Origin: a plasmid | Sequence record: NZ_CP104760.1 | DNA length: 64,000 bases | Strand: one strand, 5' to 3' | Shown: positions 27,456 through 53,382 of the stretch, one piece after another | Numbering within the stretch: the first letter of the stretch is position 1 | Layout: every line of letters begins with the position of its first letter | The notes under the pieces: generated by a model | Databases searched by the model: none | Seen by the model: the letters and a program-made list of their open reading frames with translations, nothing else | What the model was told of the DNA's origin: nothing | Translations under genes and position numbers: made by a program

Positions 27456-27666
27456 CAACATCTCTTTCTTCTCCATTAACAATCAGGCGGAGTGCCCGAA
27501 AGGTTTAATCAGAGGTTCGGTGGCGGTCGCGGAAAAGTTTCGCTGCTTTAAAATATTTTCGCGCTGAGGTGAGTGCCGGGCTGGTTAGCCTGCAGCTTTG
27601 CTGATGAGAGCGGGGCGTTATGGTACTATTCGCCGCCTGGACTTAAGACAGAAAAGGCGCATCAGG

Positions 27667-28617
27667 ATGCACAAGAAAAATACGCCTACCCCGCACGATG
27701 CGGTATTCAAAACCTTTCTCTCGCACCCCGAGACGGCGCGTGACTTTATGTCGCTGCATCTGCCGCCCGCGCTGCTGGCGATTTGCGATTTGACTACGCT
27801 GAAGCTGGAATCCGGCAGTTTCGTAGAGGATGACCTGCGCCCCTACTACAGCGATGTGCTTTACTCGCTGAAGACCCGCGGCGGCGAGGGGTATGTGCAC
27901 GTTCTGATTGAGCACCAGAGCACGCCGGATAAGCATATGGCGTTTCGGCTGATGCGCTATGCGGTGGCGGCGATGCAGCGTCATCTCGACGCCGGACATA
28001 AAACGCTGCCGCTGGTGATCCCGGTGCTCTTTTACCAGGGTAAGCGCAGCCCCTATCCTTACTCAATGAGCTGGCTTGATGCCTTTAGCGAGCGAGAACA
28101 GGCCGCGGCGCTCTACAGCGGACATTTCCCGCTGGTGGATGTAACCGTCATCCCGGATGAAGAGATTATGCAACACCGCAGCATGGCGGCGCTGACCCTG
28201 TTGCAAAAGCATATCCGCCAGCGCGATCTGAAAGGCCTGCTCGACCAGCTGGTGTCGTTGATGCTGACGGAATTTATGACCGGACAGCAGGTGATGGCGC
28301 TGGTAAACTATATGCTTCAGGCCGGCGAAACGTCGGACGCGAAAGCGATGATTCGTGAACTGGCACAGCGCGTGCCGCAGCATGAGGATGAACTGATGAC
28401 CCTTGCACAACAGCTTGAACAGATAGGATTGAAAAAAGGTCTGGAGCAAGGACTGGAACAGGGGCTGGAACAAGGCCTGGCACAGGGGCGCCAGCTTGGC
28501 GAACGAGAGGCCAGCCTGAATATCGCCCGGAACTTACTGAAAAGCGGTATGGACGTTCTCTCAGTCATGAAAGTAACGGGCCTGTCGGAAGAGGATCTCC
28601 AGCAAATCCACCACTAA
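27667..28617 (+). CDS. Rpn-family (YhgA-like, PDDEXK_7) recombination-promoting nuclease/putative transposase with a C-terminal GLEQ x 4 repeat.
   Basis: N-terminal HDAVFKTFLSHPETARDF, then VLIEHQSTPD, both typical of the Rpn/YhgA family. Confidence 0.75.
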   Translation: MHKKNTPTPHDAVFKTFLSHPETARDFMSLHLPPALLAICDLTTLKLESGSFVEDDLRPYYSDVLYSLKTRGGEGYVHVLIEHQSTPDKHMAFRLMRYAVAAMQRHLDAGHKTLPLVIPVLFYQGKRSPYPYSMSWLDAFSEREQAAALYSGHFPLVDVTVIPDEEIMQHRSMAALTLLQKHIRQRDLKGLLDQLVSLMLTEFMTGQQVMALVNYMLQAGETSDAKAMIRELAQRVPQHEDELMTLAQQLEQIGLKKGLEQGLEQGLEQGLAQGRQLGEREASLNIARNLLKSGMDVLSVMKVTGLSEEDLQQIHH

Positions 28618-28867
28618 GGCTCCGCCCTGCTTCTTATCTCTGGCCGCCCTTTCTTCAGGGCGGCGGTTTTTCTCGACGTCTCTATCCATGCTGCAATAAA
28701 AACATAAAATAACGCCGCGAGAAAATAACGTGGCGGTTGCATCCACTTATTCCGATATCTATTTAATCCTGTGCCGCTGTAATACGCCTTTAAAGAACCG
28801 ATGAAATGCTGCTTATAACGTCAGGCAGGGATCGTCCCTGCCTGCGCGCCATTATAACGGAGCGAAT

Positions 28868-30067
28868 ATGGCTTTACGGGCTGAGGTAAAAAACAGGCGG
28901 CCGCACGTGGCGATCTTTAATTGCGCTGAACATGGCCATGTTAATCCCACGCTAGGTCTGGTCAACGCGCTGGTGGCGCGGGGATATCGGGTTAGCTATA
29001 CCACGTCGGCTGAATTTGCACCTTTAATAACGGCCTGCGGCGCGGAGCCGGTAATTTATCAGCCCGCATTTAGCAAAGAGACACCTCGCCCGGAAGAGAT
29101 GGGACACGTGGTGGTTGAGCTGGCAAAAGAGGCGACGCTGACCTGGGACGGGCTATTTCACGCCTTTGTCGACGATCGCCCGGATATTATCGCTTATGGC
29201 CCGTTAAGCTGGCTGGGGAAAATATTTTCCGCTCTGTGGAATATTCCTTCCGTCGCGCTTAATCCCACCCATGCCAGCTATCAGGGACAGTCGGAAGAGT
29301 GGCTGGGAATAGCGGGCAATGCCTGGCCCTGCTTACCGCTGCTCAACGCCCTGCTGAGGTCTAAAGGCGTGGCGCTCGATCTCTCCGCGCTGTTATCCCG
29401 CCACGACAATGCTATTGCCTTTATTCCGCGCTGCTTTCAGGAAAAAGTGGAGACGGTCGATCCCCGCGTTATTTTCGTCGGGCCTGAAATCGTCGCCAGA
29501 CCTGCTGAGCATAAATGGTGCCCTGCGTCACAAGCGCGCCCCGTTGTGGTCGTTTCGCTGGGTTCGGTCTACACCAACCAGCGCGATTTTTTCCGCACCT
29601 GCATCGCGGCGTTCGCCGACAGCGAATTCCACCTGGTGTTATCTATTGGCCGCTACGTCACGCCGGACGAGCTGGGGCCAGTCGCAGCCAATATTGAGGT
29701 ACATGCGCAGATCCCTCAGCTTGAGGTGCTGCAGTCAGCCAGTTTGTTTATCACGCATGCCGGTATGAACAGCCTGATGGAGGCGGCGCATTTCGGCGTG
29801 CCGGTTATCGCCGTTCCCCAGCAGGCGGAGCAGCGGCTCAATGCCAGACGCGTCCAGCAGCTTGGTCTCGGCGTCCATCTGCCGCGGGAGCAGGTCGATG
29901 CGGACGGGTTGCTCTCCGCCGCGCGTGCGCTTCACGCCAGCGAGATCTGTCGGACACAGATTGCGCGCTTTCAGCAGCAGCTAAAAGCGGCTGGCGGCGC
30001 CAGCGCAGCAGCCGATCTCTTCGATCGACTCTTTGCCAGCCTGCAGCGCCGGGCTCAGGCGATATAA
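28868..30067 (+). CDS. GT1-family UDP-glycosyltransferase (macrolide/zeaxanthin glycosyltransferase MGT type).
   Basis: N-terminal HVAIFNCAEHGHVNPTLGLVNALVARGY and C-terminal HAGMNSLMEAAHFGVPVIAVPQQAEQ (PSPG-like donor-binding motif). Confidence 0.75.
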   Translation: MALRAEVKNRRPHVAIFNCAEHGHVNPTLGLVNALVARGYRVSYTTSAEFAPLITACGAEPVIYQPAFSKETPRPEEMGHVVVELAKEATLTWDGLFHAFVDDRPDIIAYGPLSWLGKIFSALWNIPSVALNPTHASYQGQSEEWLGIAGNAWPCLPLLNALLRSKGVALDLSALLSRHDNAIAFIPRCFQEKVETVDPRVIFVGPEIVARPAEHKWCPASQARPVVVVSLGSVYTNQRDFFRTCIAAFADSEFHLVLSIGRYVTPDELGPVAANIEVHAQIPQLEVLQSASLFITHAGMNSLMEAAHFGVPVIAVPQQAEQRLNARRVQQLGLGVHLPREQVDADGLLSAARALHASEICRTQIARFQQQLKAAGGASAAADLFDRLFASLQRRAQAI

Positions 30068-30088
30068 CAGACGAGAAATAACAAAAAA

Positions 30089-30115
30089 CGCGCAGCACGT
30101 TAACCGTGCTGCGCG
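30089..30115. terminator. Bidirectional terminator between the convergent glycosyltransferase and SDR genes.
   Basis: 11-bp stem cgcgcagcacg/cgtgctgcgcg with loop ttaac, preceded by aaaaaa. Confidence 0.55.
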
Positions 30116-30130
30116 CGGAAGGCGGGCGTT

Positions 30131-30967
30131 CTACACTTCGAGGCTGTTGACGCGCAGCATAAAGAGGTCGCGATCTCTGATCTCTCTTTTTCTTTCCAGC
30201 AGCAGGTCGAGATTATCCCTGACCGTAAGATAGAGGCCGCTCAGGCTTTTATATTTACCGCTGCACAGCTTCTCAATATTGATCATGCTCTGCTTCTCAT
30301 CCACGGTATTTCCGGCGTCCTGCTCGTCATAAACCCACTGCAACGCTTTGCCCCTGGCGCTGTTGCGATCGGTGACGGTGGAGATCAAACTGGTGACCAT
30401 GCCCGTAGAGTGAACCAGACCGGGGTGATAGGCGTAGACAGAGATATTTTCGCGCTTCATCTCGACGGCCAGGTTTTCGGTTAATTTAATCACCGCCGCT
30501 TTCGTGACTGAATAAGAGGTGCAGTAGGGCCAGCGGTAGGCGCCTGCATTGCTGACGATATTAATGATAATGCCGCGTTTGCGCATCCGCATCGGTTTAA
30601 GCGCTTCGTGGGTGCAATAAGAGAGACCAAGCAGGTTAATATTAATCGCTTCATACCAGTCATCCAGCGCGATATCGGCGAATTTATCTACCGGTCCCCA
30701 GACGCCGGCATTATTTATCACCACATCGATATGGCCAAACATGGCGACGATATCTGCAAAGCATTGTGACACGGCGGCCCGATCGCTGACGTCACAGGTG
30801 ATACAGTGAAAAAGGCCCGGATATTCCGCCTCCAGCTGCGCCAGACGGGCAGTATCCCTTCCGGTAATAATAACGGTGTGCTGACGGGCAAGCGCTTTCG
30901 CGTAGGAAAAACCCAGCCCTTTTGAACCACCGGTAATTAAAATTACTTTTTTATCTGCGTCTGTCAT
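30131..30967 (-). CDS. SDR-family oxidoreductase.
   Basis: VILITGGSKGLGFSYAKAL (Gly-rich NAD(P) motif) and YCTSYSVTK (YxxxK). Confidence 0.8.
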   Translation of the reverse strand: MTDADKKVILITGGSKGLGFSYAKALARQHTVIITGRDTARLAQLEAEYPGLFHCITCDVSDRAAVSQCFADIVAMFGHIDVVINNAGVWGPVDKFADIALDDWYEAININLLGLSYCTHEALKPMRMRKRGIIINIVSNAGAYRWPYCTSYSVTKAAVIKLTENLAVEMKRENISVYAYHPGLVHSTGMVTSLISTVTDRNSARGKALQWVYDEQDAGNTVDEKQSMINIEKLCSGKYKSLSGLYLTVRDNLDLLLERKREIRDRDLFMLRVNSLEV

Positions 30968-31392: not shown

Positions 31393-33864
31393 ATGAAACA
31401 GAGGAATGTCATGGATCGCGTTGTAATAGCCCACACGCCGCTTGGTAGCGAACTCCTGTTTAAAAAGATGACGGGTCGGGAGCAATTCTCAGACTGTTAT
31501 CAGTTTGACGTCGATATGCTGAGCACCAGCAACGAAATAAACCTGCAGGATCTGCTGGGCGAGCAGATAACGCTTGAGCTGCGCCCTAATCCGGAAACAC
31601 AGCGTTTCCTCAGCGGCATGATTACCCGCATGGCGTTTGTCGGACATGAAAAGCACCGCGAAGAGTATTATATCTACCGCGCAACGATGCGCCCCCACTT
31701 GTGGAACCTGACCCAGACGCAGGGTTTTCGCATCTGGCAGCAAAAGACCGCCAGAGAGATCCTGACCGACGTTTTCCAGGATTATGCCATTCCCATTGAT
31801 GACCAGCTGGAGGGAAACTTCCGCATCTGGGAATACTGCGTGCAGTATCAGGAAAGCATGTATGACTTCGTAAAGCGTCTGATGGAGCACGAAGGCATCT
31901 ACTTCTACTTTCGTCATGCGATGGGCCAGGAGACGCTGGTGCTCTGCAACAGCAGGAAATCTCACCAGCCGTTCGGATGCTATGAGACCATCGAGTTTCA
32001 TCAAACCGGCGCGGGTGGTTACGTAAATCAGGAGGCGATCAACAGCTGGCAGGCGTCAGCGTCGGTGTCGGCCAGCCTCTACAGCCATGATGATTATAAC
32101 TATCTGCAATCGAACGCCGACCTCTCCGCCACGATGCAGATCGCCGACGCCCGCTCGCCGGCGAATACCAAAATCACCGAGTGGCCGGGACGCTATCCCC
32201 ATCAGTCAGAGGGAAACGACTATTCACAGATCCGCCAGCAGGAATATGGCGCGCGACAGCAGCAAATTGAAGGCGCGGGCGATGCGTTCGGCCTGGCGCC
32301 AGGCTACACCTTTACGCTCTGTATGGCGCCGCGCGCCGCAGATGAAGGAAAAACCTTTCTGATTACCCGGGTCGATTACCACCTGGAAGAGAACAGCTAC
32401 GCCAGTAACGATCAAGACCACAATATCCATCGCTTCGACTTCTGCGTTATTCCAGCGACGGTGGTCTGGCGTCCGGCGCGCGTCACGCCCTGGCCGCGCA
32501 CCACCGGCCCGCAAACGGCGGTGGTCATCAAAGCCAGCGACGCCAGCAAAGGCGACGGCGACCATATCTCCACCGATCAGTATGGTCGCGTGCGGGTTAA
32601 ATTCCGCTGGTTCAGAGCGGAAGATGAAACCCGGCTTCACTCCTGCTGGCTGCGCGTCTCAAGCGGCTGGGCCGGGAGCCAGTATGGCACGTATCAGATC
32701 CCGCGCGTCGGCGAAGAGGTGGTGGTCGATTTTATTAACGGCGACCCCCACACGCCGGTGGTGACTGGGCGAGTCTATAACGATTTGCAGACCCTGCCGA
32801 TTTCTGAACACCTGGTGACGGAAGCCAGCACCAGCGATATTGCCAGCGGTGACAGCGTAACGGCGGAGAGCGCCGCCGAGTGGAATTACGCTAAAAGTGG
32901 CATCTGGACGCGTACGCTCGGCAGCCAGGATGTTAACGACGGCAATTTCCTCACCTTTGACGACACCGAAGGCGAACAGTCGGTCGATCTGCACGCCGCG
33001 AAGAAGCTGAATATCTCCGCCAAGGACGCGGTCAAAATCTACTCCGCCAGGGCGGGCGACGACGCGATAAAAGTCTGGTCGCCCGGCCAGGTTTACATTC
33101 AGAGCGAAGATACCTTAAACACCAGCGCGCCGACGCAGAAACACAGCATTCGCGGCAGCTACTACACCATCAGCGGCGCCAACTTCACCACTAACGGCAT
33201 CGCCTTAACCATTAATGGCGTCAACGGCACCATCAATGCCGTCAGCAGCCTGCAGGCGACGACGACGGAATTCACTGCCAAAGGCTTATCCATGGAAGTC
33301 ACCGGCGTGAAGCACGCCAAAACCTATTCTGAAATAAAAAAGAACGTCAATGAGATCAAAGAGGTCAACCGGCAACTGGTCTTCGCCTCTTTGATCTCGA
33401 TTATGAATGGCGGCGGCGGCGCGTTGCCGAATGAGAATGAGCGGACGGTGACCAGCCAGCTGGACAAGCTGAAAGCGAAAGTGAAATGGAAAGGGAAAAG
33501 CAACGAAAGCGCCGCCGGTTCGCGACCGCCTTCGCAGGCGAGTAACGCCTCGCAGGGGAGTAACGCTTCGCAGGCGAGCAATGCTTCGCAGGCAAGTAAC
33601 GCCTCACAGGCAAGCAACGCTTCGCAGGCAAGTAACGCCTCCCAGGCGAGCAATGCTTCGCAGGCAAGCAATGCCTCGCAGGCAAGTAATGCTTCCCAGG
33701 CGAGTAACGCTTCTCAGGCGAGCAATGCCTCGCAGGCAAGTAACGCCTCACAGGCGAGCAATGCTTCGCAGGCAAGCAATGCCTCGCAGGCAAGCAACGC
33801 TTCGCAGGAGAGCTTCCAGACGGCGCGCACCAGTCAATCGACACCCGGTGGAGAAGGCGCTTAG
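31393..33864 (+). CDS. vgrG: T6SS spike protein VgrG with a C-terminal (SNASQA)n repeat tail and no recognisable toxin domain.
   Basis: gp27/gp5-like N-terminal region (RATMRPHLWNLTQTQGFRIWQ...). The C-terminal 15 hexapeptide repeats end in ...SQSTPGGEGA. Confidence 0.9.
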   Translation: MKQRNVMDRVVIAHTPLGSELLFKKMTGREQFSDCYQFDVDMLSTSNEINLQDLLGEQITLELRPNPETQRFLSGMITRMAFVGHEKHREEYYIYRATMRPHLWNLTQTQGFRIWQQKTAREILTDVFQDYAIPIDDQLEGNFRIWEYCVQYQESMYDFVKRLMEHEGIYFYFRHAMGQETLVLCNSRKSHQPFGCYETIEFHQTGAGGYVNQEAINSWQASASVSASLYSHDDYNYLQSNADLSATMQIADARSPANTKITEWPGRYPHQSEGNDYSQIRQQEYGARQQQIEGAGDAFGLAPGYTFTLCMAPRAADEGKTFLITRVDYHLEENSYASNDQDHNIHRFDFCVIPATVVWRPARVTPWPRTTGPQTAVVIKASDASKGDGDHISTDQYGRVRVKFRWFRAEDETRLHSCWLRVSSGWAGSQYGTYQIPRVGEEVVVDFINGDPHTPVVTGRVYNDLQTLPISEHLVTEASTSDIASGDSVTAESAAEWNYAKSGIWTRTLGSQDVNDGNFLTFDDTEGEQSVDLHAAKKLNISAKDAVKIYSARAGDDAIKVWSPGQVYIQSEDTLNTSAPTQKHSIRGSYYTISGANFTTNGIALTINGVNGTINAVSSLQATTTEFTAKGLSMEVTGVKHAKTYSEIKKNVNEIKEVNRQLVFASLISIMNGGGGALPNENERTVTSQLDKLKAKVKWKGKSNESAAGSRPPSQASNASQGSNASQASNASQASNASQASNASQASNASQASNASQASNASQASNASQASNASQASNASQASNASQASNASQASNASQASNASQESFQTARTSQSTPGGEGA
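33538..33807 (+). repeat. 15 tandem copies of an 18-bp unit (consensus gcRagYaaYgcYtcNcag) encoding (ASNASQ)15 inside the 3' end of vgrG. Copies differ almost only at synonymous positions.
   Basis: Counted directly from the sequence. It generates artefactual antisense ORFs (LACEALLACE...). Confidence 0.9.
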
Positions 33865-33872
33865 CCGCTGTT

Positions 33873-36353
33873 ATGAAAATCATTAAACCACGCCACCTGG
33901 GCTTGTTACCGCGCCCCTTCCGTTGGCAGCGCCAGCACTATCTCGGCGTCGCCGTTATGGCGATGATAAATATGGATGCGCTGCCGCGCCTGCTGACCGA
34001 GCAGGCGCTATGGAATCTGCTGCCAGAGGCGCTGCAGTCGCCCGATGGCGTGCTCGATCACGGCCTGCCTAAACCGCACCCGGAGTTTCTCGCCAGCGGC
34101 TTTGCCTTTCCGCCCGGCGGCGCGGCATCGCACTGTATCGCCCGCATCCAGGTAGCCGATCGGGAAAAAACGCTGCACGTTTACGGCGATCGCCAGCGGC
34201 GGGAGGATGGCCTCAGCGCACCGCAGCCTTTTACGCAGATGCCGCTCGACTGGCAACATGCGTTGGGCGACGCAGGCGACAGCGAAAATCCGCTGGGCAA
34301 GGCGATACCCAACGTCGAGGCGGCCGCGCCGCTGCTGATCCAGCCCGGCGCGGGCGCGCTTCCTGCCAGCTTTAACGCGGTGCCGTTAAGCGCGCCGCGT
34401 CGCCTGCGCCACGTTGGCAGCGCCTTTGACGAGGCCTGGCTGGCGCATGACTATCCTGGCTTCGCCCGCGATGCCGACCGACGCCTGTTTAACCAGGGCG
34501 ATGCGGATCAGCGCTGGGACGATCGCGACGCCCTGCCCGCTGGCGCCGCCTGGCGCATTGAAAACATGCATCCAGATAAATCGCTGCTTGAGGGATGCCT
34601 GCCGCCGTGGCAGGCACGCTGTTTCGTGGTGCGTCAGCATACCCACGGCGAGATGTTTGAAGCGATCCCGCTGCGCGCCACGACGCTGCACTTTTTCCCT
34701 CATCTGGAGCGCATTGTGATGATCTGGCATGGCGAGCTGGCGATCCGTGAAGATGACGCTGCAGACGTGCTCACCACGGTCGCAGCGCTCGAGTCGATCC
34801 ACCAGCCGCGCACGCCCGAAGCCTATGAAGAGATCACGCGGCAACGCAGCGACCCCGAACGCTCGGTGCTGCTTGCGTTACGCGACGGCGAGTTGCTGCC
34901 CCCAGGCAGCGCCATTACGGATGACGAGCCTGAACCGCCTCCCGGCCCGACAGATCGCAACCTTGCGCGCTGGGAAACGGCGCAGCGCCAGCAGCTGCGG
35001 CATGCGCACAGCGACAGCGGGATGGATATAGATGCGCTGGCGCCCACCCGACCGCGCGCTCCGACGGTGCCGCTGGAGGATCTGCATGATTATATCGACG
35101 CGCAGGATCGCGCCGCGCAGCAGCAGCTGGCGCAGATGATAACGCGCTATCAGCAGGAAGCGGCGCTGGCTCCGCCCGCCGCCAGACCGGCCGCCGCGAT
35201 AGAGACCTATCGCAGCCAGCGCGCCGCGTTTGACGAGAACGCGCAGCAGCAGCCGATGGATGACCGTCAGCGTACGTTCAGCTCTCAGGCGCTGCGTGAC
35301 AGCTACCGCTTTAATGCTCATCAGCTGAGCGCGCCCGAGCGCCTGACGCCCGCGCAGTCGGCGCAGTTGCGTCAGGCGGTGCTGACGCGCGATGGCGACT
35401 GCCGCGAGATGGATCTCACCGGCGCGGATCTGTCAGGGCTTGACCTGCGCGACACCGACTTCAGCGGCGCGCTGCTGGAGAATGTCGATTTCAGCCACTG
35501 CCAGCTCGACGGCAGCCTGTTCAGCAATGCCGTGCTGACGCGCGCAGAACTGCATCGCTGCTCAGCCCGCGCCTGCGCCTTCGATAATGCCAGCCTGGCT
35601 CTGGCCCAGTGCTGTTACGCCGACTTTAGCGATTCAGTCTTCAGCGAGACGGAGTGCCGGGATCTGATGCTGGAACAGTGCGTTTTCGATCGCGCCACCC
35701 TCAGTGACGTAATGCTGACACAGGCGAGCCTGGCGCACTGCCGCTTTCATCATGCGCAGATCGTCAATGCCCATTTCAGCGAGCTGACGCTGCAGGCGCT
35801 CGACTTCAGTCACGCCACGCTGCGCAAAGTCTATTTCGTCGAGTGCCATCTGCTGGCGCTCAGTTTCGAACAGGCGCGCCTGACGGCGGTGGGCTTCGTC
35901 GACTGTCAGGCGCCAGAAATCTGTTTTCATCAGGCGCAGCTGCATACTTCGCTGTTTGTCACCGATACGGCCCTGATCCGCGCCGACTTCAGCGGCGCCA
36001 CGCTGACGCAGTGCAATCTGCGGGAGACGCGGCTGGCGCAGGCGAACTTTTCTCACGCCATGCTGATCAACAGCGACCTCAGCGGCGCGGACTGTACGCA
36101 GGCGGATATGCGGCGGATGCAGGCCAGGGAGTGCCAGTTTACCCGTGCGGATTTGACGCGGGCGACGCTGGCGGAGAGCGACCTGATCGGCGCCTCCTTC
36201 TCAAAATCTCAGCTGCAGGGATGTGATTTCAGCGGCTGCAACCTGTTCCGCGCCGACCTCTCGCTTAGCGTGCGCGATGCGACGACGCGCTTCGAAGAGG
36301 CCTGGCTTAACGGCATGAAAACCGCGCCGCAGCGCGACGAGGAGCATTCGTGA
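33873..36353 (+). CDS. DUF2169-type T6SS adaptor domain fused to a long C-terminal pentapeptide-repeat domain (826 aa).
   Basis: Immediately downstream of vgrG, as is typical for DUF2169. The C-terminal half is A(D/N)LxG/F pentapeptide repeats (ADLSGLDLRDTDFSGALLENVDFSHCQL...). Confidence 0.7.
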   Translation: MKIIKPRHLGLLPRPFRWQRQHYLGVAVMAMINMDALPRLLTEQALWNLLPEALQSPDGVLDHGLPKPHPEFLASGFAFPPGGAASHCIARIQVADREKTLHVYGDRQRREDGLSAPQPFTQMPLDWQHALGDAGDSENPLGKAIPNVEAAAPLLIQPGAGALPASFNAVPLSAPRRLRHVGSAFDEAWLAHDYPGFARDADRRLFNQGDADQRWDDRDALPAGAAWRIENMHPDKSLLEGCLPPWQARCFVVRQHTHGEMFEAIPLRATTLHFFPHLERIVMIWHGELAIREDDAADVLTTVAALESIHQPRTPEAYEEITRQRSDPERSVLLALRDGELLPPGSAITDDEPEPPPGPTDRNLARWETAQRQQLRHAHSDSGMDIDALAPTRPRAPTVPLEDLHDYIDAQDRAAQQQLAQMITRYQQEAALAPPAARPAAAIETYRSQRAAFDENAQQQPMDDRQRTFSSQALRDSYRFNAHQLSAPERLTPAQSAQLRQAVLTRDGDCREMDLTGADLSGLDLRDTDFSGALLENVDFSHCQLDGSLFSNAVLTRAELHRCSARACAFDNASLALAQCCYADFSDSVFSETECRDLMLEQCVFDRATLSDVMLTQASLAHCRFHHAQIVNAHFSELTLQALDFSHATLRKVYFVECHLLALSFEQARLTAVGFVDCQAPEICFHQAQLHTSLFVTDTALIRADFSGATLTQCNLRETRLAQANFSHAMLINSDLSGADCTQADMRRMQARECQFTRADLTRATLAESDLIGASFSKSQLQGCDFSGCNLFRADLSLSVRDATTRFEEAWLNGMKTAPQRDEEHS

Positions 36354-37408
36354 ACGGGATGACGGCTGAGGCGGTCGAGCGCGCCATCCAGCACGGCGAG
36401 ATGATCTATCAGGTCGGGCTGCAGGGCCTGGACTTCAGCGGACGCGATCTCTCCGGCGGCTCTTTTATCGAGGTCGACTTAACCGGCGCACGCCTGACAG
36501 ACTGCAATCTGCATGAGACGCGCTTCAGCGACTGCTGCCTGCGCGGCAGCGATTTTTCAGGCAACAGGCTAGAGGAGACGCTGTTCAACCAGTGCGTTAT
36601 GACCGGCGCGCGCTTCAGCGATTGCGGCCTCTACCAGTGTCTGTTCAGCCAGTGTCAGCTTGAAGAAAGTCAGTTCGACGCCAGCGCGCAGATCGGCACG
36701 CAGTTCCTGGGCGGCTCGCTTAGCGACAGCGATTTTCAGCACGCCGCGCTGCAAGGATGCGGCTTCAGCGATCTGGGACATTTAACGCTCCAGCTTGCCG
36801 GGTGCTGGTGCGAGCAGGGTTCCTTTATGAACGCCGACCTGCGTCAGGCGGACTTTAGCGCGGCGCGCTTCTCGCTCACGACCTTTTTCGCCTGCGACCT
36901 GCGGCTGCAAACGCTGGACGGCGTGGCGTTTAACCAGTGCCAGTTTACGCAAAGCCAGCTGGACGGCGCCAGCTTCCACCAGGCGATCCTGAGCCAGTGC
37001 GGTCTCAGCGGTCTGTCGCTACGCCAGGCCAGGCTGACGCAGGTGCAGGCGCAGCAAACGCTGTTTAACGCCGCCGATATGACCGGCTGTGACTGCCGCG
37101 ACGCGCAGTTTGCTCAGGCCAACTTTGCCGACGCGATTCTGACCGGCTGCGATTTCAGCCGCAGCGATCTACAGCGCGCCGTGCTGGCGCGCAGCCGTGC
37201 CGTTCAGACGCGCTTCGACGGCTGCGATATGACCTGGGCGGACTGCACCAGGGCGCAAATGGATGAGGCGCAGTTTAACGACGCGCAGTTCGGGCACACC
37301 CGCTTCCACCGCGCCAGCACGCACCAGAGCGAATTCACCTCGCGCAGCGGTATTATTGAACGGGATGAAGCGCTGTTTGCAGCAGAGGAGTGGAGCCGCC
37401 AGCGTTAA
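36350..37408 (+). CDS. Pentapeptide-repeat protein (352 aa).
   Basis: DFSGRDLSGGSFIEVDLTGARLTDCNLHETRFSDCCLRGSDFSG and similar repeats throughout. Start overlaps the upstream stop. Confidence 0.8.
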   Translation: MNGMTAEAVERAIQHGEMIYQVGLQGLDFSGRDLSGGSFIEVDLTGARLTDCNLHETRFSDCCLRGSDFSGNRLEETLFNQCVMTGARFSDCGLYQCLFSQCQLEESQFDASAQIGTQFLGGSLSDSDFQHAALQGCGFSDLGHLTLQLAGCWCEQGSFMNADLRQADFSAARFSLTTFFACDLRLQTLDGVAFNQCQFTQSQLDGASFHQAILSQCGLSGLSLRQARLTQVQAQQTLFNAADMTGCDCRDAQFAQANFADAILTGCDFSRSDLQRAVLARSRAVQTRFDGCDMTWADCTRAQMDEAQFNDAQFGHTRFHRASTHQSEFTSRSGIIERDEALFAAEEWSRQR

Positions 37409-38241
37409 ATTATTTCGCCGCGTGCGACGGCGATTATAAAAAATTTATTATGCCATATTTATTATTGACGATTGACGCTGCGGCCTTAAAGAGGCCGCTT
37501 TTGCTTTTGTGTGAATTAAATATTTATGACAGAAGGCTGAGAAGATCCGTTAGTCAGTGACGGAGATAATTAACCTGTGAAATGATATTCACTGTTTTCC
37601 TTTGCTGGCCTTATATTATTCGGACTAAATGGCTGTGTATTGCTGAAAATTAACGCCTGTTTCAAACGGGTGTCATAAAGGCTGCGCTAACCAGATATTT
37701 ACTATGCTGTTTCAGTATCGGATATCTTTCAATATATCATTGATTTTTATAGCTTTGATTTTATTTAATTCAGATTTAAATTTAATTATGACATTTACAT
37801 TAAGTTTATATGAATATTTTCCCGGGCTATTTATTAAGAGTATTCCCATCTTCACAGGTGCCAGCGAATAATGTAAATATGTTCCCCGGTTAGTGTATTT
37901 ATTGAGTAAATTATTTCGCATCATGAACGCTGCGTATGCGCCACGCCTCTATTTATTCTGGCGGAGCTGTTTGCGTCTTTTTACTGGCGGCAAAAAATCA
38001 AAATATATTACCTGAGGGTTATTGTTTCTTCTATGCGCCTCTTTTTAACGTGCAGTTTATTCGCCCCGACAGGCTTTGCAGCAGAAAGAATCGCCTTTAT
38101 TTGCCGTCAGTCTCTGAAAAAAGCGGCTAATCACGCTGTTATCGATGCGCGTGGAAATAACCGCGTCGGCGCAGGAAAAACCGTTACGCCGCGCCTCCCC
38201 TGTTTCGTGCCATTCCCTTTCGTCGATTGTGAGAGTTCGCT
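37409..38241. promoter_or_regulatory. AT-rich non-coding spacer of about 830 bp inside the vgrG-adaptor module. Candidate silenced or regulated promoter region for the DUF3540/DUF4150/tssJ-M genes.
   Basis: Strikingly AT-rich compared with flanking coding DNA (above 60% GC by eye). No credible ORF. Confidence 0.45.
37480..37511 (+). terminator. Rho-independent terminator downstream of the second pentapeptide-repeat gene.
   Basis: Stem gcggcc/ggccgc, loop ttaaaga, then ttttgcttttgtg. Confidence 0.6.
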
Positions 38242-38850
38242 ATGAGCAAAAAAGAGAACACCCTCTCCATGCCGCTGCGGTTGCCTGCGCAGGCGGAGGG
38301 CGTAGTGGTCGCCCCGCTGTCCGAAAACAGCGTCGAGGTGGAGCTGCAGGGACGTCGCTGGCGCACGCAGCGCGCCGCCAGCTGCCTGCTGACGCCGGAG
38401 CCGGGAGACCGGGTGCTGCTGGCCAACCTTAACCATCAACTCTGGCTGCTGGCGGTGCTGGAGCGGGCGCAGCCCGAACAGACGGCGCAGCTCGGCTGCG
38501 GCAGCGATCTGCATCTCGCCTGCGGCGGCGCGCTCACGCTTAGCAGCCAGCAGTTCAGCCTGAAAGCCGCGCAGGGCGAGTGCGATATCGACAGCCTGCG
38601 CTATCGCGGCCAGTCGGTTTCCGCCTGGATCAGCGTCGGCCGCTTCTTCGGCAAACAGTGTGAAAGCGTCTGGGAGAGCCTCAGCCAGTTTAGCCAGCGG
38701 CTGCTGCGCAAAACCGCACAGTGCGAACAGGTTCGTGCAGGCCAGCTTGACGTCAAAACCGAAGAGTTCACCCGACTCCATTCGCGCAACACCCTGATCA
38801 GCAGCACGTCGCTGACCAAGGTCGACGCCAAACAGATTCACATGGGCTAA
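38242..38850 (+). CDS. DUF3540-like protein of the vgrG/DUF2169/PAAR-like module.
   Basis: About 200 aa, positioned between the pentapeptide-repeat genes and the DUF4150 gene, as in described VgrG1b-type modules. Assigned by context and size. Confidence 0.5.
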   Translation: MSKKENTLSMPLRLPAQAEGVVVAPLSENSVEVELQGRRWRTQRAASCLLTPEPGDRVLLANLNHQLWLLAVLERAQPEQTAQLGCGSDLHLACGGALTLSSQQFSLKAAQGECDIDSLRYRGQSVSAWISVGRFFGKQCESVWESLSQFSQRLLRKTAQCEQVRAGQLDVKTEEFTRLHSRNTLISSTSLTKVDAKQIHMG

Positions 38851-38863
38851 GGGAGAAGCGGAT

Positions 38864-39244
38864 ATGTTTGCCAATTGCCAACGCGGCGGCTGCGACCAGG
38901 CGGTCAGCGACGTCTGCAAAGCGCCTGCGCCGACGACCTTCGTCAATATCGCCAGCGGCAGCCTGGCGGTGCCTACGGCGCCGACCATCCTCTTCGCCGG
39001 CATGCCGGCCCATAACATGACCACGCTGATCCCCGTCAGTCAGGGAGATGAAGCGGGCGTGCTCGGCGGGGTGATCTCGAACGTGATCCTTGGCCCTTCG
39101 CGCCACCTGACCGGCTGCTCCACCTTACTGCTGCAGGGATCGCCCGCGACACGCATGGGCAGCACTACCCTGCAGAACCTGAACAACGCGCCAGGCGTCC
39201 GTCTGACGCCCAGCCAGACCACTATCGAACTGCTGGCGCGATAA
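38864..39244 (+). CDS. DUF4150 PAAR-like spike-sharpening protein with no C-terminal toxin domain (126 aa).
   Basis: Size and position match DUF4150 PAAR-like proteins. Gly/Ala/Thr-rich beta-rich sequence. Ends shortly after the domain. Confidence 0.6.
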   Translation: MFANCQRGGCDQAVSDVCKAPAPTTFVNIASGSLAVPTAPTILFAGMPAHNMTTLIPVSQGDEAGVLGGVISNVILGPSRHLTGCSTLLLQGSPATRMGSTTLQNLNNAPGVRLTPSQTTIELLAR

Positions 39245-39250
39245 CACTCT

Positions 39251-39754
39251 ATGGAAGCTCGGTTACCCCTTATGAAAAAGATGATATCTGGCGTGGTGAT
39301 TGCGTTAGCGCTCAGCGGCTGTAACGCGCCGCCGGTGAAATCTCAGGAGAAGCTGGAAACCAGCGTAGTGGACGGAACGACCCTGGTGCATCGCCACGAG
39401 ATCGGCGCGCCGAAAACCTTCACGCCGGTTTATCAGGCCTATCGCGCGCTCTATGCGGCGTCGGTGATGAGCACGCCGGGCTTCCAGGGAAAACGGGTCG
39501 GGACGCTTAAAAACGGCGAGCTTTACCAGGTACTGGGTCGGGTAGAAAACAACTGGCTGGCGATCTCCGACAGCCCGGAGCTGCAGCTGACCGGCTACGT
39601 CGAGTTTAAGGCGGGCGTGCCCTCAGCGCGCTATGACGCCACCGTAACCGGCGCGCCACCCGTATCGCGGCGCCCCGCCCGGCAGTGCATCGGCGTCGGC
39701 AACGGCGACAGCGCCTGCCGTAAAGGCCGTTCCGCCACCTGGATCATTCAATAG
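39251..39754 (+). CDS. Lipoprotein with a bacterial SH3-like domain. Alternative start at MKKMISG.
   Basis: Lipobox LALSGC. The NGELYQVLGRVENNWLAIS...GYVEFK region resembles SH3b. Confidence 0.5.
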   Translation: MEARLPLMKKMISGVVIALALSGCNAPPVKSQEKLETSVVDGTTLVHRHEIGAPKTFTPVYQAYRALYAASVMSTPGFQGKRVGTLKNGELYQVLGRVENNWLAISDSPELQLTGYVEFKAGVPSARYDATVTGAPPVSRRPARQCIGVGNGDSACRKGRSATWIIQ

Positions 39755-50367: not shown

Positions 50368-50850
50368 ATGGCTATCGCAATGTATTTCAAACCTGAAGGC
50401 GTTGAAGGCGAGTCCAAAGATTCCGCGCATGAAGGCTGGATCGACGTGCTCTCTTTCAGCTGGGGCGCTAATCAGCCGAACAACATGAGCGTGGGCGGCG
50501 GCGGCGGCGCTGGCAAGGTGAACTACAACGACCTGCACGTGCACTGCCGTATCGATAAGGCGACGCCGACCCTGCTGCAGTTCTGCTCCAACGGCAAACA
50601 TATTCCGTCGCTGACCATGCACGTCTGTAAGGCGGGCGGCACCCAGATGATCTACAACGTCATCCAGCTGACGGAAGTGCTGGTGACCAGCGTGCAGTTC
50701 ACCGGCTCGCGCGATGACGACACCATCGGCATCGACTACGCCTTCCAGGCGGCGGCGATCCAGGAGAACTACACCCAGCAGGCGGAAGACGGTTCCGCCG
50801 GCGCGGAAACCACTTCCCAGTGGAATATCAAGACCAACACCGCGTCTTAA
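50368..50850 (+). CDS. hcp: T6SS inner tube protein Hcp (TssD).
   Basis: AIAMYFKPEGVEGESKDSAHEGWIDVLSFSWG...GGGGGAGKVNYNDLHV matches the Hcp1 family. Confidence 0.85.
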   Translation: MAIAMYFKPEGVEGESKDSAHEGWIDVLSFSWGANQPNNMSVGGGGGAGKVNYNDLHVHCRIDKATPTLLQFCSNGKHIPSLTMHVCKAGGTQMIYNVIQLTEVLVTSVQFTGSRDDDTIGIDYAFQAAAIQENYTQQAEDGSAGAETTSQWNIKTNTAS

Positions 50851-50858
50851 CGCTATCC

Positions 50859-50881
50859 GGCAACCTCCGCGCGAGGTTGCC
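50859..50881 (+). other. Stable stem-loop immediately downstream of hcp (9-bp stem ggcaacctc/gaggttgcc, loop cgcgc), not followed by a U-tract. Candidate attenuator or processing/stabilising hairpin.
   Basis: Inverted repeat read directly from the sequence. Confidence 0.45.
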
Positions 50882-50908
50882 CTGATTCAGATCGATCAGG
50901 TAATCAGC

Positions 50909-52612: not shown

Positions 52613-53382
52613 ATATTACCTTTGCTTCCACCAGCCAGCAGGGCCAGCGCGCCATGAATCAGGATCAGCTCGCCGACGCGCTCGGCGCGCGCGCTGCCTG
52701 CTTTGTGATCTGCGACGGCATCGCCGGCAAGCCGGGCGGAGATGTCGCCGCCCGGCTGGCGTGCGAGACCATCGTCGGGCAGTTCAACACCGAAACGCAC
52801 CTCGACGCGCAGCATATCCGCCACTATATCGCTGCCGCCAATCGCGCCATTCTGCAAACCCAGGCGCGCGACGCGCAGCTGAAAAATATGGGCACCACGC
52901 TGGTGAGCCTGTTTATCGATCGCGACTATCAGCTCGCCTACTGGGCGCACGCGGGGGACAGCCGCCTCTATCTGTTCCGCCGCGGCTATCTGCTGCAGCA
53001 GACGCGCGATCACAGCCTGGCGCAGCAGATGCGCGATGCCGGGCATGATGGCGGCAGCGTAAACCAGAACCTGCTCTACTTCGCGCTGGGCATGCGCGAG
53101 GAGCGCGAGGCCAGCTACAGCGATGTGTTGCCGCTGGAAGACGGCGACGCCTTTTTGCTCTGCACCGACGGTTTCTGGCATGCGCTGCAGGTTGAGGATC
53201 TCGAACAGAGCCTGCGGATGGTAAGTTCGCCGCAGGAGTGGCTGGCGCTGCTACAGCGCATGCAGCCCGACGACAACCCGGATAATTTCAGCGCGCTGGC
53301 GGTCTGGATCGGCGAGCCGCAGGACGCCACGCTGCTCAGCTCGTTCAGCGATGCCCAGCGCATCTTGCTCAACTGCCGCTAA
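52609..53382 (+). CDS. pppA: PP2C-family Ser/Thr phosphatase PppA (TagG).
   Basis: FASTSQQGQRAMNQDQ...FVICDGIAG (PP2C motifs) and TDGFW. Confidence 0.8.
   Translation: MNITFASTSQQGQRAMNQDQLADALGARAACFVICDGIAGKPGGDVAARLACETIVGQFNTETHLDAQHIRHYIAAANRAILQTQARDAQLKNMGTTLVSLFIDRDYQLAYWAHAGDSRLYLFRRGYLLQQTRDHSLAQQMRDAGHDGGSVNQNLLYFALGMREEREASYSDVLPLEDGDAFLLCTDGFWHALQVEDLEQSLRMVSSPQEWLALLQRMQPDDNPDNFSALAVWIGEPQDATLLSSFSDAQRILLNCR

What the first reader, a model, noticed from the sequence alone, without database searches (positions are those of the whole stretch)
33520..33864. VgrG ends in 15 tandem SNASQA hexapeptide repeats encoded by wobble-diversified 18-bp units
A canonical VgrG core is followed by (ASNASQ)15 and a short tail, with no toxin or adaptor-binding domain. 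The DNA copies differ almost exclusively at synonymous third positions (gcg/gca, agt/agc, aac/aat, gcc/gct, tcg/tca/tcc/tct). This means the peptide repeat is conserved while the DNA is kept from being perfectly repetitive. The repeat is therefore under purifying selection at the protein level. It may be an extended flexible or spacer stalk that presents the DUF2169/PAAR-like cap or cargo. Repeat-number variation would change spike reach.
Basis: seen in the sequence. Interest (0 to 1): 0.55.

Follow-up and report, generated by a model that had tools for sequence, protein, structure and literature searches.

The report
Variable hexapeptide-repeat tail on VgrG spike
The spike protein of a Pantoea piersonii type VI secretion system ends in 15 perfect copies of a six-residue peptide, a strain-variable, species-specific repeat tail that is real and unusual for this protein family but has no known function.

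Summary
vgrG (31393-33864) ends in 15 in-frame 18-bp units (33538-33807) encoding ASNASQ (unit 2 is GSNASQ), then 18 residues. All other DNA variation is at third codon positions.

The organism is Pantoea piersonii-like. Three other assemblies are 99.1-99.4% identical in the flank but carry 17, 17 and 20 units with reshuffled wobble patterns. All 69 units encode [A/G]SNASQ. Rare A/T-ending codons make up about half of the array, against 2-7% in the rest of vgrG.

The repeat is not conserved beyond the species. Thirteen loci in Pantoea, Erwinia, Rouxiella and Tatumella keep the same core and operon but have unrelated low-complexity tails, including (NNT)~31, (SNASNNSRNSTE)n, poly-Asn and 26 collagen-like Gly-X-Y triplets. 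The operon is a published Class III Tvp system, in which the PAAR-like cap sits on the beta-prism tip and DUF2169 binds that cap.

Best reading: a lineage-specific, recombination-prone expansion in a hypervariable polar tail. It most likely acts as a flexible spacer carrying a short terminal motif. Peptide-level purifying selection is supported. "Presents the cap" is not. The closest formal analogue is the staphylococcal ClfA/Fbl 18-bp R-domain. I rate it a new variant of a known kind, of moderate interest.

The parts
31393..33864 (+). vgrG (tssI), 823 aa. Orthologues start at MDRVV, codon 7 (31411), so the true start may be there.
   Evidence: ORF and translation. Pfam PF05954 and PF04717. 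TIGR03361 and TIGR01646 above their cut-offs. Orthologue N-termini.
31477..32778 (+). Canonical VgrG core: gp27/gpD-like hub (aa 29-334) and gp5-like OB fold (aa 394-462).
   Evidence: Pfam coordinates. The AF2 hub domain is confident, mostly pLDDT above 80.
32779..33369 (+). Short beta-prism and tip region (aa 463-659), conserved within the Pantoea/Erwinia/Rouxiella/Tatumella subfamily. The tip segment aligns with the last ~100 aa of Serratia-type Class III VgrG1, but about 200 aa of prism are absent.
   Evidence: Subfamily alignment. BLASTP against P0011, E = 2e-5. Only one strong 50%-identity cluster among 1.84 billion representatives.
33370..33489 (+). Two predicted helices (aa 660-671 and 683-699): the hydrophobic QLVFASLISIM segment, a GGGG hinge, and the Lys-rich LDKLKAKVKW segment. 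This is the last part conserved across the subfamily.
   Evidence: AF2 secondary structure. Subfamily alignment.
33490..33537 (+). Non-repetitive linker KGKSNESAAGSRPPSQ, ending in a partial unit 'SQ'.
   Evidence: Translation. Alignment of the collapsed array to Erwinia sp. S63.
33538..33807 (+). The repeat: 15 in-frame 18-bp units, consensus GCR AGY AAY GCY TCN CAG, encoding (ASNASQ)15 with GSNASQ at unit 2.
   Evidence: Copy number is 17, 17 and 20 in L001, L002 and L015. pN/pS about 0.015, GC3 0.62 against 0.72-0.80 nearby, and enrichment of rare codons.
33808..33864 (+). Terminal 18 residues ESFQTARTSQSTPGGEGA plus the stop codon. Candidate short linear motif (E/D)SF(Q/S)TAR(T/E)S.
   Evidence: Identical in L015 and, by translation, in L001 and L002. 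Shared with Erwinia sp. S63, P0001 and P0002 despite otherwise unalignable tails.
33873..36353 (+). tvpAB-like gene: DUF2169 (aa 21-286) fused to pentapeptide repeats. It starts 8 nt after the vgrG stop.
   Evidence: Pfam. Conserved downstream of vgrG in all 13 related genome loci. Naming from PMC13373197.
36350..37408 (+). tvpB-like pentapeptide-repeat protein.
   Evidence: Pfam. Synteny.
38242..38850 (+). tvpC-like DUF3540 protein.
   Evidence: Pfam PF12059. Synteny.
38864..39244 (+). PAAR-like (DUF4150 / Tox-PAAR-like) spike cap.
   Evidence: Pfam PF13665. Synteny.

Best explanation
The (ASNASQ)15 block is a species-specific variable-number tandem repeat. It grew by amplification of one hexapeptide-coding segment inside the C-terminal tail of a Class III Tvp-chaperoned VgrG.

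Shown:
- The array is real.
- It lies after the last conserved structural element of the spike.
- It changes copy number (15-20) and wobble pattern between strains that are otherwise over 99% identical.
- It keeps the peptide perfect.
- Its position is occupied by unrelated polar low-complexity sequences in every related species.

Inferred, DNA level: the array evolves by out-of-register pairing between units (replication slippage, unequal recombination or gene conversion). This gains and loses units and reassorts a small pool of synonymous C:G>T:A variants of an ancestral preferred-codon unit, GCG AGC AAC GCC TCG CAG. Amino-acid changes are removed by selection.

Inferred, protein level: three such uncharged, hydrophilic, probably flexible 90-120-residue segments emerge near the spike tip. 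They act as a length-tunable spacer or tether that holds the short C-terminal motif (ESFQTAR...) away from the tip, which is capped by the PAAR-like protein and wrapped by TvpAB/TvpB. There the motif could contact a partner, or the tail could simply keep the hydrophobic tip helix soluble. The tail is not a toxin domain and does not carry the cap.
For: - Array anatomy and synonymous-only variation.
- Four independent assemblies hold 15, 17, 17 and 20 units. Their flanks differ by 12-19 of ~2140 nt. Aligned wobble sites differ at 15-27%. The allele set is always the same, and Gln is CAG in 69 of 69 units.
- Sites 3 bp apart show all four allele combinations, with two linked cores (AGT-AAC-GCC and AGC-AAT-GCT). 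This is consistent with reassortment.
- Allele-level test: 7 synonymous against 1 non-synonymous, P about 2e-4 to 1e-3.
- With the array collapsed to one unit, the tail (PPSQ-ASNASQ-ESFQTARTS) resembles Erwinia sp. S63 PPSTASARSSTDSFSTARES in a protein alignment. The DNA alignment of the same region is poor, so an origin by local amplification is suggestive only.
- Orthologues share the core, the tip and the helices, but their tails are unrelated polar low-complexity sequence of about 60-215 aa.
- The same downstream cassette is present in all 13 loci. It matches the Class III Tvp system (PMC13373197).
- The tail has no detectable relative among 5.8 billion proteins and no domain hit.
- The full-length AF2 model with an alignment gives pLDDT about 30 and no secondary structure for residues 700-823.
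- Formal precedent: staphylococcal R-domains are 18-bp wobble-degenerate units with strain-variable copy number and dN/dS 0.045, and they function as a flexible stalk (PMC3324548; PMC6533592).
Against: - A passive spacer would not be expected to keep a perfect peptide. In the rest of VgrG, 5 of 19 differences between the window and L015, and 5 of 13 between the window and L001, change the protein.
- A single-sequence AF2 run predicts one long helix across the repeat. The best model reaches pLDDT 94, but the five models range from 46 to 73. Order cannot be excluded.
- One orthologue has a collagen-like Gly-X-Y tail, which argues that at least some tails form rods.
- The terminal motif is not universal in the subfamily.
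- One strain (L001) has a premature stop in vgrG, so the gene may be dispensable there.
- No binding partner for the tail is known.
- Copy numbers come from assemblies of unknown read type.
Confidence: 0.5

Rival explanations
1. Ordered fibrous extension. The three tails of the VgrG trimer associate into a regular rod, for example a helical bundle, that physically lengthens the spike or forms a 'whisker'. Rod length would be set by copy number.
For: - The peptide is strictly conserved over 69 units.
- Single-sequence AF2 predicts a continuous helix over residues ~721-814, with pLDDT up to 94 in the best model.
- The Rouxiella silvae orthologue carries 26 uninterrupted Gly-X-Y triplets at the same position. 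On a trimeric scaffold that is the signature of a collagen-like triple helix.
- This VgrG has a prism about 200 aa shorter than Serratia-type Class III VgrG1.
Against: - The full-length AF2 run with an alignment gives pLDDT about 30 and coil. The five single-sequence models disagree, with mean pLDDT from 46 to 73.
- Single-sequence AF2 is known to over-predict helices for Ala-rich repeats (own knowledge).
- ASNASQ has no hydrophobic periodicity and is half Ser and Asn, which form helices poorly.
- Other orthologues have poly-Asn, Pro/Ser-rich or charged tails that cannot form the same structure.
- The axial position at the tip is occupied by the PAAR-like cap in the published model.
Confidence: 0.2
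2. Functionless by-product. The tail region tolerates any polar sequence. Slippage-prone repeats expand there by chance, and the perfect peptide reflects recent amplification and concerted evolution rather than selection.
For: - Tails are unalignable between species and vary about 60-215 aa in length.
- Tatumella's (NNT)~31 is nearly perfect at the DNA level, which suggests a young microsatellite-type expansion.
- Copy number varies freely within P. piersonii.
- L001 carries a nonsense codon in vgrG.
- Most between-strain differences in the array can be explained by reshuffling existing alleles.
Against: - The allele pool is 7 synonymous to 1 non-synonymous, whereas about 22% synonymous is expected by chance.
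- pS among units is about 0.66, so the units are not recent copies.
- Every member of the subfamily keeps a polar tail of at least about 60 aa after the conserved helices.
- The terminal motif is conserved with Erwinia sp. S63.
Confidence: 0.2
3. Modification scaffold. Each unit carries an Asn-Ala-Ser sequon and two serines. The array would be a multivalent substrate for glycosylation or phosphorylation, in the producer or in a eukaryotic target.
For: - There is an N-X-S/T sequon in every unit.
- Two other repeat tails are also sequon-rich: NNT in Tatumella, and NAS/NNS/NST in Ca. Pantoea formicae.
- A glycosyltransferase gene lies 1.3 kb upstream.
- The cluster encodes Fha and a PP2C phosphatase, which indicates Ser/Thr phospho-signalling.
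- Staphylococcal SD repeats are glycosylated (own knowledge).
Against: - The upstream enzyme is a macrolide-family (MGT) small-molecule glycosyltransferase, TIGR01426 at 341 bits against a cut-off of 260.
- It is present only next to the P. piersonii locus, not next to other sequon-rich tails.
- Sequons are expected by composition in Asn/Ser-rich sequence.
- The poly-Asn, GDK and Pro/Ser-rich tails lack regular sequons.
- No HMW1C-type N-glycosyltransferase was seen in the window.
Confidence: 0.05
4. Assembly artefact: a collapsed, expanded or chimeric repeat.
For: The read technology of the assemblies is unknown. The three comparison sequences are a scaffold-level isolate draft and two metagenome contigs, and 270-360-bp arrays can be mis-assembled.
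Against: - Four independent assemblies all contain an in-frame array in the same place, with the same allele set and the same flanks.
- Arrays share partial unit order, as real homologues would.
- Wobble heterogeneity makes collapse less likely.
Confidence: 0.03

Closest known systems
[quoted passage not shown]
   Same: - The operon logic is the same: vgrG, tvpAB (DUF2169 plus pentapeptide repeats), tvpB (pentapeptide repeats), tvpC (DUF3540), then a DUF4150/PAAR-like gene at the head of a T6SS cluster.
- The VgrG core is about 45% identical to Serratia homologues.
- The tip segment is homologous and is followed by a hydrophobic helix (discussion read).
   Different: - Serratia VgrG1 ends at the hydrophobic segment. 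It has an exceptionally long beta-prism and an immunity gene (vai1) directly downstream.
- The P. piersonii protein has a prism about 200 aa shorter and no gene between vgrG and tvpAB (8-nt gap).
- It has an extra ~165-residue C-terminal extension: a GGGG hinge, a Lys-rich helix, the repeat, and a terminal motif.
- The paper does not describe such tails.
Staphylococcal R-domains: ClfA/Sdr Ser-Asp repeats and S. lugdunensis Fbl SDSDSA repeats
   Same: - The units are 18 bp and encode a hexapeptide.
[quoted passage not shown]
- There are many distinct DNA versions of one peptide, with dN/dS of 0.045.
- Copy number varies between strains without frameshift.
- The region is interpreted as a flexible stalk whose length affects function (PMC3324548; PMC6533592).
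   Different: - These are Gram-positive, cell-wall-anchored adhesins. The repeat there is acidic and lies between the ligand-binding domain and the wall anchor.
- Here the repeat is uncharged, lies at the free C-terminus of a secreted, trimeric T6SS spike protein, and is confined to one species.
- This is a resemblance in how it works. It is not homology.
VgrG C-terminal extensions that recruit effectors or adaptors (EAEC VgrG DUF2345/TTR; DUF4123-adaptor-binding tails; A. tumefaciens VgrG C-termini)
   Same: A non-toxic C-terminal extension of VgrG whose extreme end may be a binding site. The literature states that the VgrG C-terminal tail is the effector loading site (PMC13373197 introduction; PMC12574953).
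   Different: Those extensions are folded domains or short specific segments. None is reported as a long tandem-repeat, low-complexity tract. No adaptor or cargo gene specific to this tail was found next to any of the 13 loci.
Bacterial collagen-like repeat proteins with strain-variable length (e.g. Bacillus anthracis BclA; own knowledge)
   Same: A trimeric protein with a C- or N-terminal tandem-repeat region whose copy number sets filament length. The Rouxiella silvae orthologue of this VgrG has 26 Gly-X-Y triplets at the same position.
   Different: ASNASQ has no glycine periodicity, so the P. piersonii tail cannot be a collagen helix.

Membership tests
VgrG / TssI spike protein | gp27/gpD-like hub followed by a gp5-like OB fold, scoring above curated family cut-offs. 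| tested here: met
   PF05954 at 272 bits and PF04717 at 62 bits. TIGR03361 at 432 bits (cut-off 186) and TIGR01646 at 346 bits (cut-off 122).
VgrG / TssI spike protein | Encoded with the T6SS core genes. | tested here: met
   TssJ, K, L, M, A, B, C, Hcp, TssE, F, G and ClpV lie downstream on the same strand.
Class III Tvp-associated VgrG (PMC13373197) | Followed by a DUF2169 plus pentapeptide-repeat fusion (TvpAB) and a separate pentapeptide-repeat protein (TvpB). | tested here: met
   ORF 33873-36353 has DUF2169 at residues 21-286 plus pentapeptide repeats. ORF 36350-37408 has pentapeptide repeats. The class definition was read.
Class III Tvp-associated VgrG (PMC13373197) | A DUF3540 TvpC protein and a DUF4150/PAAR-like protein in the same cassette. 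| tested here: met
   PF12059 at 38242-38850 and PF13665 at 38864-39244. The cassette is conserved in all 13 related loci.
Class III Tvp-associated VgrG (PMC13373197) | Longer-than-usual beta-prism. The paper reports this as a tendency, not a strict criterion. | tested here: inconclusive
   BLASTP against Serratia-type P0011 shows about 200 residues of prism missing. The AF2 monomer model of this region has low confidence. A trimer model was not possible with these tools.
Specialised ('evolved') VgrG with a C-terminal effector domain | A recognisable toxin or enzymatic domain after the spike. | tested here: not met
   No Pfam or NCBIfam domain lies beyond residue ~550. The Plasmodium_HRP hit is below its cut-off and reflects composition. 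The tail has no relative among 5.8 billion proteins. The only PDB hit is a low-complexity artefact.
Staphylococcal-type R-domain repeat (architecture only) | 18-bp wobble-degenerate units encoding one hexapeptide, with strain-variable copy number and in-frame changes only. | tested here: met
   compared with the descriptions read.
Staphylococcal-type R-domain repeat (homology / membership) | Ser-Asp dipeptide composition within an LPXTG cell-wall-anchored adhesin. | tested here: not met
   The sequence is ASNASQ with no acidic residues, at the free C-terminus of a Gram-negative T6SS protein.
Collagen-like repeat | Glycine at every third residue over many triplets. | tested here: not met
   There is no Gly periodicity in the P. 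piersonii array. The feature is met in the Rouxiella silvae orthologue, L013.
Left-handed beta-helix 'hexapeptide repeat' (PF00132-type) | [LIV]-G-x4 hexads with an aliphatic residue at a fixed position. | tested here: not met
   No Pfam Hexapep hit. The unit has no aliphatic residue larger than Ala.
Phase-variable contingency locus (simple-sequence on/off switch) | The repeat unit is not a multiple of three, or copy change shifts the frame or promoter spacing. | tested here: not met
   The unit is 18 bp. All four alleles (15-20 units) stay in frame and keep the same terminal 18 residues. Copy change alters length, not expression state.

The most novel reading that the evidence does not exclude
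A small VgrG subfamily in Pantoea, Erwinia, Rouxiella and Tatumella has replaced part of the rigid beta-prism with a species-specific, copy-number-tunable fibrous or flexible 'whisker' at the spike tip. The whisker is collagen-like (GDK)26 in Rouxiella and (ASNASQ)15-20 in P. piersonii. It would set the reach of the spike or mediate first contact with the target. The wobble diversification, with roughly ten-fold enrichment of rare codons, would be a product of second-order selection to keep a long repeat genetically maintainable.
Probability: 0.12. Interest if true: 0.7.

Novelty: new variant of a known kind. Interest (0 to 1): 0.45.

Why it matters
VgrG C-termini decide what a T6SS spike carries and how it is assembled. 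Known extensions are folded toxin or adaptor-binding domains.

A family of spikes whose C-terminus is a rapidly evolving tandem-repeat tail would add a new type of spike decoration. In this family the tail varies in length within a species and is collagen-like in a sister lineage.

It also gives a simple experimental handle, repeat number, on how much space and flexibility the Tvp-chaperoned tip tolerates.

At the DNA level it is a clean Gram-negative counterpart of the staphylococcal R-domain repeat. The array is strain-variable enough that it might be tested as a typing marker for P. piersonii, a species known from the International Space Station and from clinical samples (own knowledge).

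If the tail proves dispensable, it is still a neat example of repeat expansion in a tolerant protein terminus.

Tried and rejected
1. Looked for the same peptide elsewhere. A search of 5.8 billion proteins with the tail gave only one weak SQ-rich hit. A PDB search gave only a low-complexity artefact, 9e5c.
2. Metagenome scan with the subfamily profile found nothing. The permitted second scan, with a degenerate three-unit DNA pattern, found one contig, L015.
3. E. coli genomes: no match.
4. Tested whether neighbouring units are more dissimilar than chance, which would indicate selection for non-repetitiveness. The result was not consistent: P is about 0.06-0.1 in two strains and the trend is opposite in L001.
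5. Considered that the upstream glycosyltransferase modifies the Ser/Asn-rich tail. Rejected as unlikely. It is an MGT small-molecule enzyme and is absent from the other loci.
6. Looked for a conserved adaptor or effector gene upstream of vgrG across the subfamily. Only housekeeping genes were found: RND efflux, a LacI-type regulator and gluconate dehydrogenase.
7. RNA-level role. There are no Rfam hits in the window. The array RNA folds with z = -2.6, which is unremarkable for a self-similar repeat.
8. Overlapping ORFs in other frames or on the other strand (33401-33883 minus, 33581-33886 plus) are by-products of a stop-free repeat.
9. Literature searches for VgrG low-complexity, disordered or collagen-like tails returned nothing relevant.
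10. Structure prediction did not settle order against disorder. The two runs disagree.
Full report
**1. The observation**

The ORF at 31393-33864 on the plus strand encodes an 823-residue protein. It has a gp27/gpD-like hub (PF05954, residues 29-334) and a gp5-like OB fold (PF04717, residues 394-462). It scores well above the curated cut-offs of the NCBI VgrG models.

Tandem Repeats Finder reports an 18-bp array at 33527-33808 with 15.6 copies. It is by far the strongest tandem repeat in the 64-kb window.

Read in frame, there are exactly 15 units at 33538-33807. Fourteen encode ASNASQ and unit 2 encodes GSNASQ. ESFQTARTSQSTPGGEGA and the stop codon follow.

Every other difference between units is at the third base of codons 1-5: GCG/GCA, AGT/AGC, AAC/AAT, GCC/GCT and TCG/A/C/T. 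Gln is always CAG.

**2. Source and close relatives**

A profile of the conserved C-terminal structured region found 13 loci among species-representative genomes. The best, at 100% identity over the probe, is Pantoea piersonii IIIF1SW-P2 (L002). A 99%-identical protein fragment led to a JGI metagenome contig (L001). A degenerate DNA pattern for three units found a fourth copy in another metagenome (L015).

The 2.1 kb of vgrG upstream of the array differs from the window by only 12-19 nucleotides in these three. Yet the arrays have 17, 17 and 20 units instead of 15, and the order of wobble variants is largely different. After the best unit-level alignment, 15-27% of aligned wobble sites differ (4.3-7.4% per nucleotide of array), against 0.6-0.9% per nucleotide in the flank.

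All 69 units encode [A/G]SNASQ. The only amino-acid variant is Gly in units 1-3 at the 5' edge. The same alleles recur in every strain (GCR AGY AAY GCY TCN CAG), and CAA never occurs. The terminal 18 residues are identical in all four.

L001 has a premature TAG at codon 512. The other three genes are intact.

**3. What the DNA pattern means**

Pairwise pN/pS among units is about 0.015, with pS about 0.66. Units are not independent, so this is descriptive.

A more conservative count is of alleles. At least seven synonymous variants exist against one non-synonymous. About 22% of random single-base changes in this unit would be synonymous, which gives P about 2e-4, or about 1e-3 if 30% is assumed.

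The A/T-ending variants are C:G>T:A transitions away from a unit made of the genome's preferred codons. Five of the six possible synonymous transitions are present and none of the seven possible non-synonymous ones (my count).

Rare codons are strongly over-represented. GCA plus GCT make up 46% of Ala codons in the arrays, against 6% in the rest of vgrG. AGT is 59% of AGY codons, against about 7%.

Sites 3 bp apart show all four allele combinations, and sites 2-4 retain two linked cores.

Together these points suggest a small old pool of synonymous variants that is continually reassorted by out-of-register pairing between units, with gain and loss of units. Replacement changes are removed. So peptide-level purifying selection is supported. 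However, the large number of synonymous differences overstates the number of independent events.

I found no consistent evidence that neighbouring units are more different than chance. The array is the least stable part of the gene. The idea that heterogeneity is maintained to protect the repeat therefore remains plausible but unshown.

**4. Origin and conservation**

The nine closest protein clusters and the 13 genome loci come from Pantoea, Erwinia, Rouxiella and Tatumella. They share the core, a short prism and tip, a hydrophobic helix (QLVFASLISIM-type), a Gly-rich hinge and a Lys-rich helix. Beyond that point they are unalignable.

The tails observed are:
- Pro/Ser-rich, in Erwinia sp. 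S63.
- REPTPRQSQEQ repeats.
- Poly-Asn.
- (SNASNNSRNSTE)n, in Ca. Pantoea formicae.
- About 31 copies of NNT, encoded by near-perfect AACAACACT, in Tatumella morbirosei.
- 26 uninterrupted Gly-X-Y triplets (GDK/GDQ/GNK), in Rouxiella silvae.

Tail length ranges from roughly 60 to 215 residues.

With the P. piersonii array collapsed to one unit, the protein alignment resembles the Erwinia sp. S63 tail: PPSQ-ASNASQ-ESFQTARTS against PPSTASARSSTDSFSTARES. The DNA alignment of that region is poor. The array therefore looks like a lineage-specific amplification of a pre-existing hexapeptide, but this is suggestive only. The (E/D)SF(Q/S)TAR motif after it is older than the repeat.

Other members end in acidic-aromatic motifs such as [FY]FDAE or FNPWA, but not all do.

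The tail peptide has no relative in a 5.8-billion-protein collection. The structured C-terminal region has only one strong cluster among 1.84 billion representatives. The subfamily is small.

**5. Genomic context and what is known**

In all 13 loci vgrG is followed by a fixed set of genes:
- a DUF2169/pentapeptide-repeat fusion;
- a pentapeptide-repeat protein;
- a DUF3540 protein;
- a PAAR-like DUF4150 protein;
- a TagV-like lipoprotein, found in the loci long enough to include it;
- TssJ and TssK, likewise.

The rest of the T6SS follows in the window. Upstream genes differ between lineages and are housekeeping, so vgrG heads the cluster.

This cassette is the Class III Tvp system described for Serratia marcescens VgrG1. 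[quoted passage not shown] Paar1 sits on the end of the beta-prism, and TvpAB and TvpB wrap the tip (PMC13373197). DUF2169 is a chaperone of the PAAR-like (PIPY) domain (PMC11883445).

Serratia VgrG1 ends with 26 mostly hydrophobic residues that the authors suspect to be a cryptic membrane-active peptide. It is followed by an immunity gene.

The P. piersonii protein differs in three ways. Its tip segment is homologous to Serratia-type VgrG1, but about 200 prism residues are missing. There is no gene between vgrG and tvpAB. The chain continues for about 165 residues beyond the hydrophobic helix.

Neither these papers nor my searches describe repeat or low-complexity VgrG tails.

**6. Structure**

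The full-length AF2 model with a 58-sequence alignment is confident for the hub. It gives pLDDT about 30 and no secondary structure for residues 700-823, with helices at 660-671 and 683-699.

A single-sequence run of residues 659-823 instead draws one long helix through the repeat. The best model reaches pLDDT 94, but the five models range from 46 to 73 in mean pLDDT.

The unit is uncharged, half Ser/Asn and one-third Ala, and it has no hydrophobic periodicity. I read this as probably flexible or disordered, with transient or trimer-induced helicity not excluded. A trimer model could not be made with these tools.

**7. Most likely function**

My best account is a length-variable, hydrophilic spacer or tether. 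Three of them emerge beside the capped and chaperoned tip. Each ends in a short motif that may bind a partner, or the tail may simply keep the hydrophobic tip helix soluble.

Three things fit this account: the position after the last conserved element, the universal presence but free sequence of polar tails in the subfamily, and the older terminal motif.

There is also a formal precedent in staphylococcal ClfA/Fbl R-domains. Those are 18-bp wobble-degenerate units with many DNA versions of one hexapeptide, dN/dS of 0.045 and 9-52 copies. They act as a flexible stalk whose length matters.

Against the account, a passive spacer should not need a perfect peptide, while replacement differences do occur in the folded part of VgrG. 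The collagen-like tail in Rouxiella also shows that at least one lineage probably builds a rod.

Rival readings, each scored separately in the report:
- an ordered trimeric fibre;
- a functionless expansion in a tolerant terminus;
- a modification scaffold, weakened because the neighbouring glycosyltransferase is a macrolide-type enzyme found only in this species;
- an assembly artefact, which is excluded for the array's existence but not for exact copy numbers.

**8. Verdict**

Purifying selection on the peptide, the absence of a toxin domain and copy-number variation all hold. The role in presenting the DUF2169/PAAR cap does not fit the published architecture. The repeat is species-specific rather than conserved.

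It is a new variant of a known kind: a VgrG C-terminal extension with a repeat architecture already known from Gram-positive adhesins. Interest is moderate. It rises if the tails turn out to be functional whiskers of tunable length.

Noticed in passing
window 37409-38241: An AT-rich (32-40% GC) 833-bp insert separates the tvpB-like gene from the DUF3540 (tvpC-like) gene. It occurs only in P. piersonii-like loci (also L002, and L015 at 98% identity). The other species have 20-80 bp at this position. The insert carries a strong terminator-like hairpin (37480-37498 plus a T-run) and three promoter-like sites, so it may split the accessory operon. It has no Rfam hit.
   Followed up: partly
L013 2412-2645 (Rouxiella silvae strain 213): The orthologous VgrG ends in 26 uninterrupted Gly-X-Y triplets (GDK/GDQ/GNK, then GTR and GNR). 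This is a collagen-like repeat on a trimeric spike protein. My literature searches found no report of it.
   Followed up: partly
L014 6679-6957 (Tatumella morbirosei); L012 6769-7023 (Ca. Pantoea formicae): Other orthologues carry about 31 copies of Asn-Asn-Thr encoded by almost perfect AACAACACT, or (SNASNNSRNSTE)n. The same tail position is a hotspot for independent tandem-repeat expansions of different ages.
   Followed up: partly
L001 about 11534-11536 (codon 512 of vgrG); window 32926-32928: One metagenome-derived strain has CAG>TAG at codon 512. The context is AGCCAGGAT, which contains the Dcm site CCAGG, a classic 5-methylcytosine deamination hotspot. vgrG may be a pseudogene in that strain, yet its array is intact with 17 units.
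   Followed up: partly
window 27598-30967: Upstream of vgrG lie an Rpn-family recombination-promoting nuclease (YhgA-like), a macrolide-family (MGT) glycosyltransferase, and an SDR on the opposite strand. This arrangement was seen only in the three P. piersonii-like loci whose upstream flank was examined (window, L001, L002). No functional link to the repeat was found.
   Followed up: partly
window 31393-31413: The longest ORF starts at MKQRNVMDRVV, but all orthologues start at MDRVV. The real vgrG start is probably the ATG at 31411.
   Followed up: no
window 32779-33369: The beta-prism of this VgrG is about 200 residues shorter than in Serratia-type Class III VgrG1. This runs against the published tendency for Class III spikes to have long prisms.
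   Followed up: partly
window 39251-39754 and 50714-53382: The lipoprotein after the PAAR-like gene resembles TagV, but at 144 bits it is below the model's cut-off of 300. The cluster also encodes an Fha protein and a PP2C phosphatase, so this T6SS is probably under threonine-phosphorylation control.
   Followed up: no
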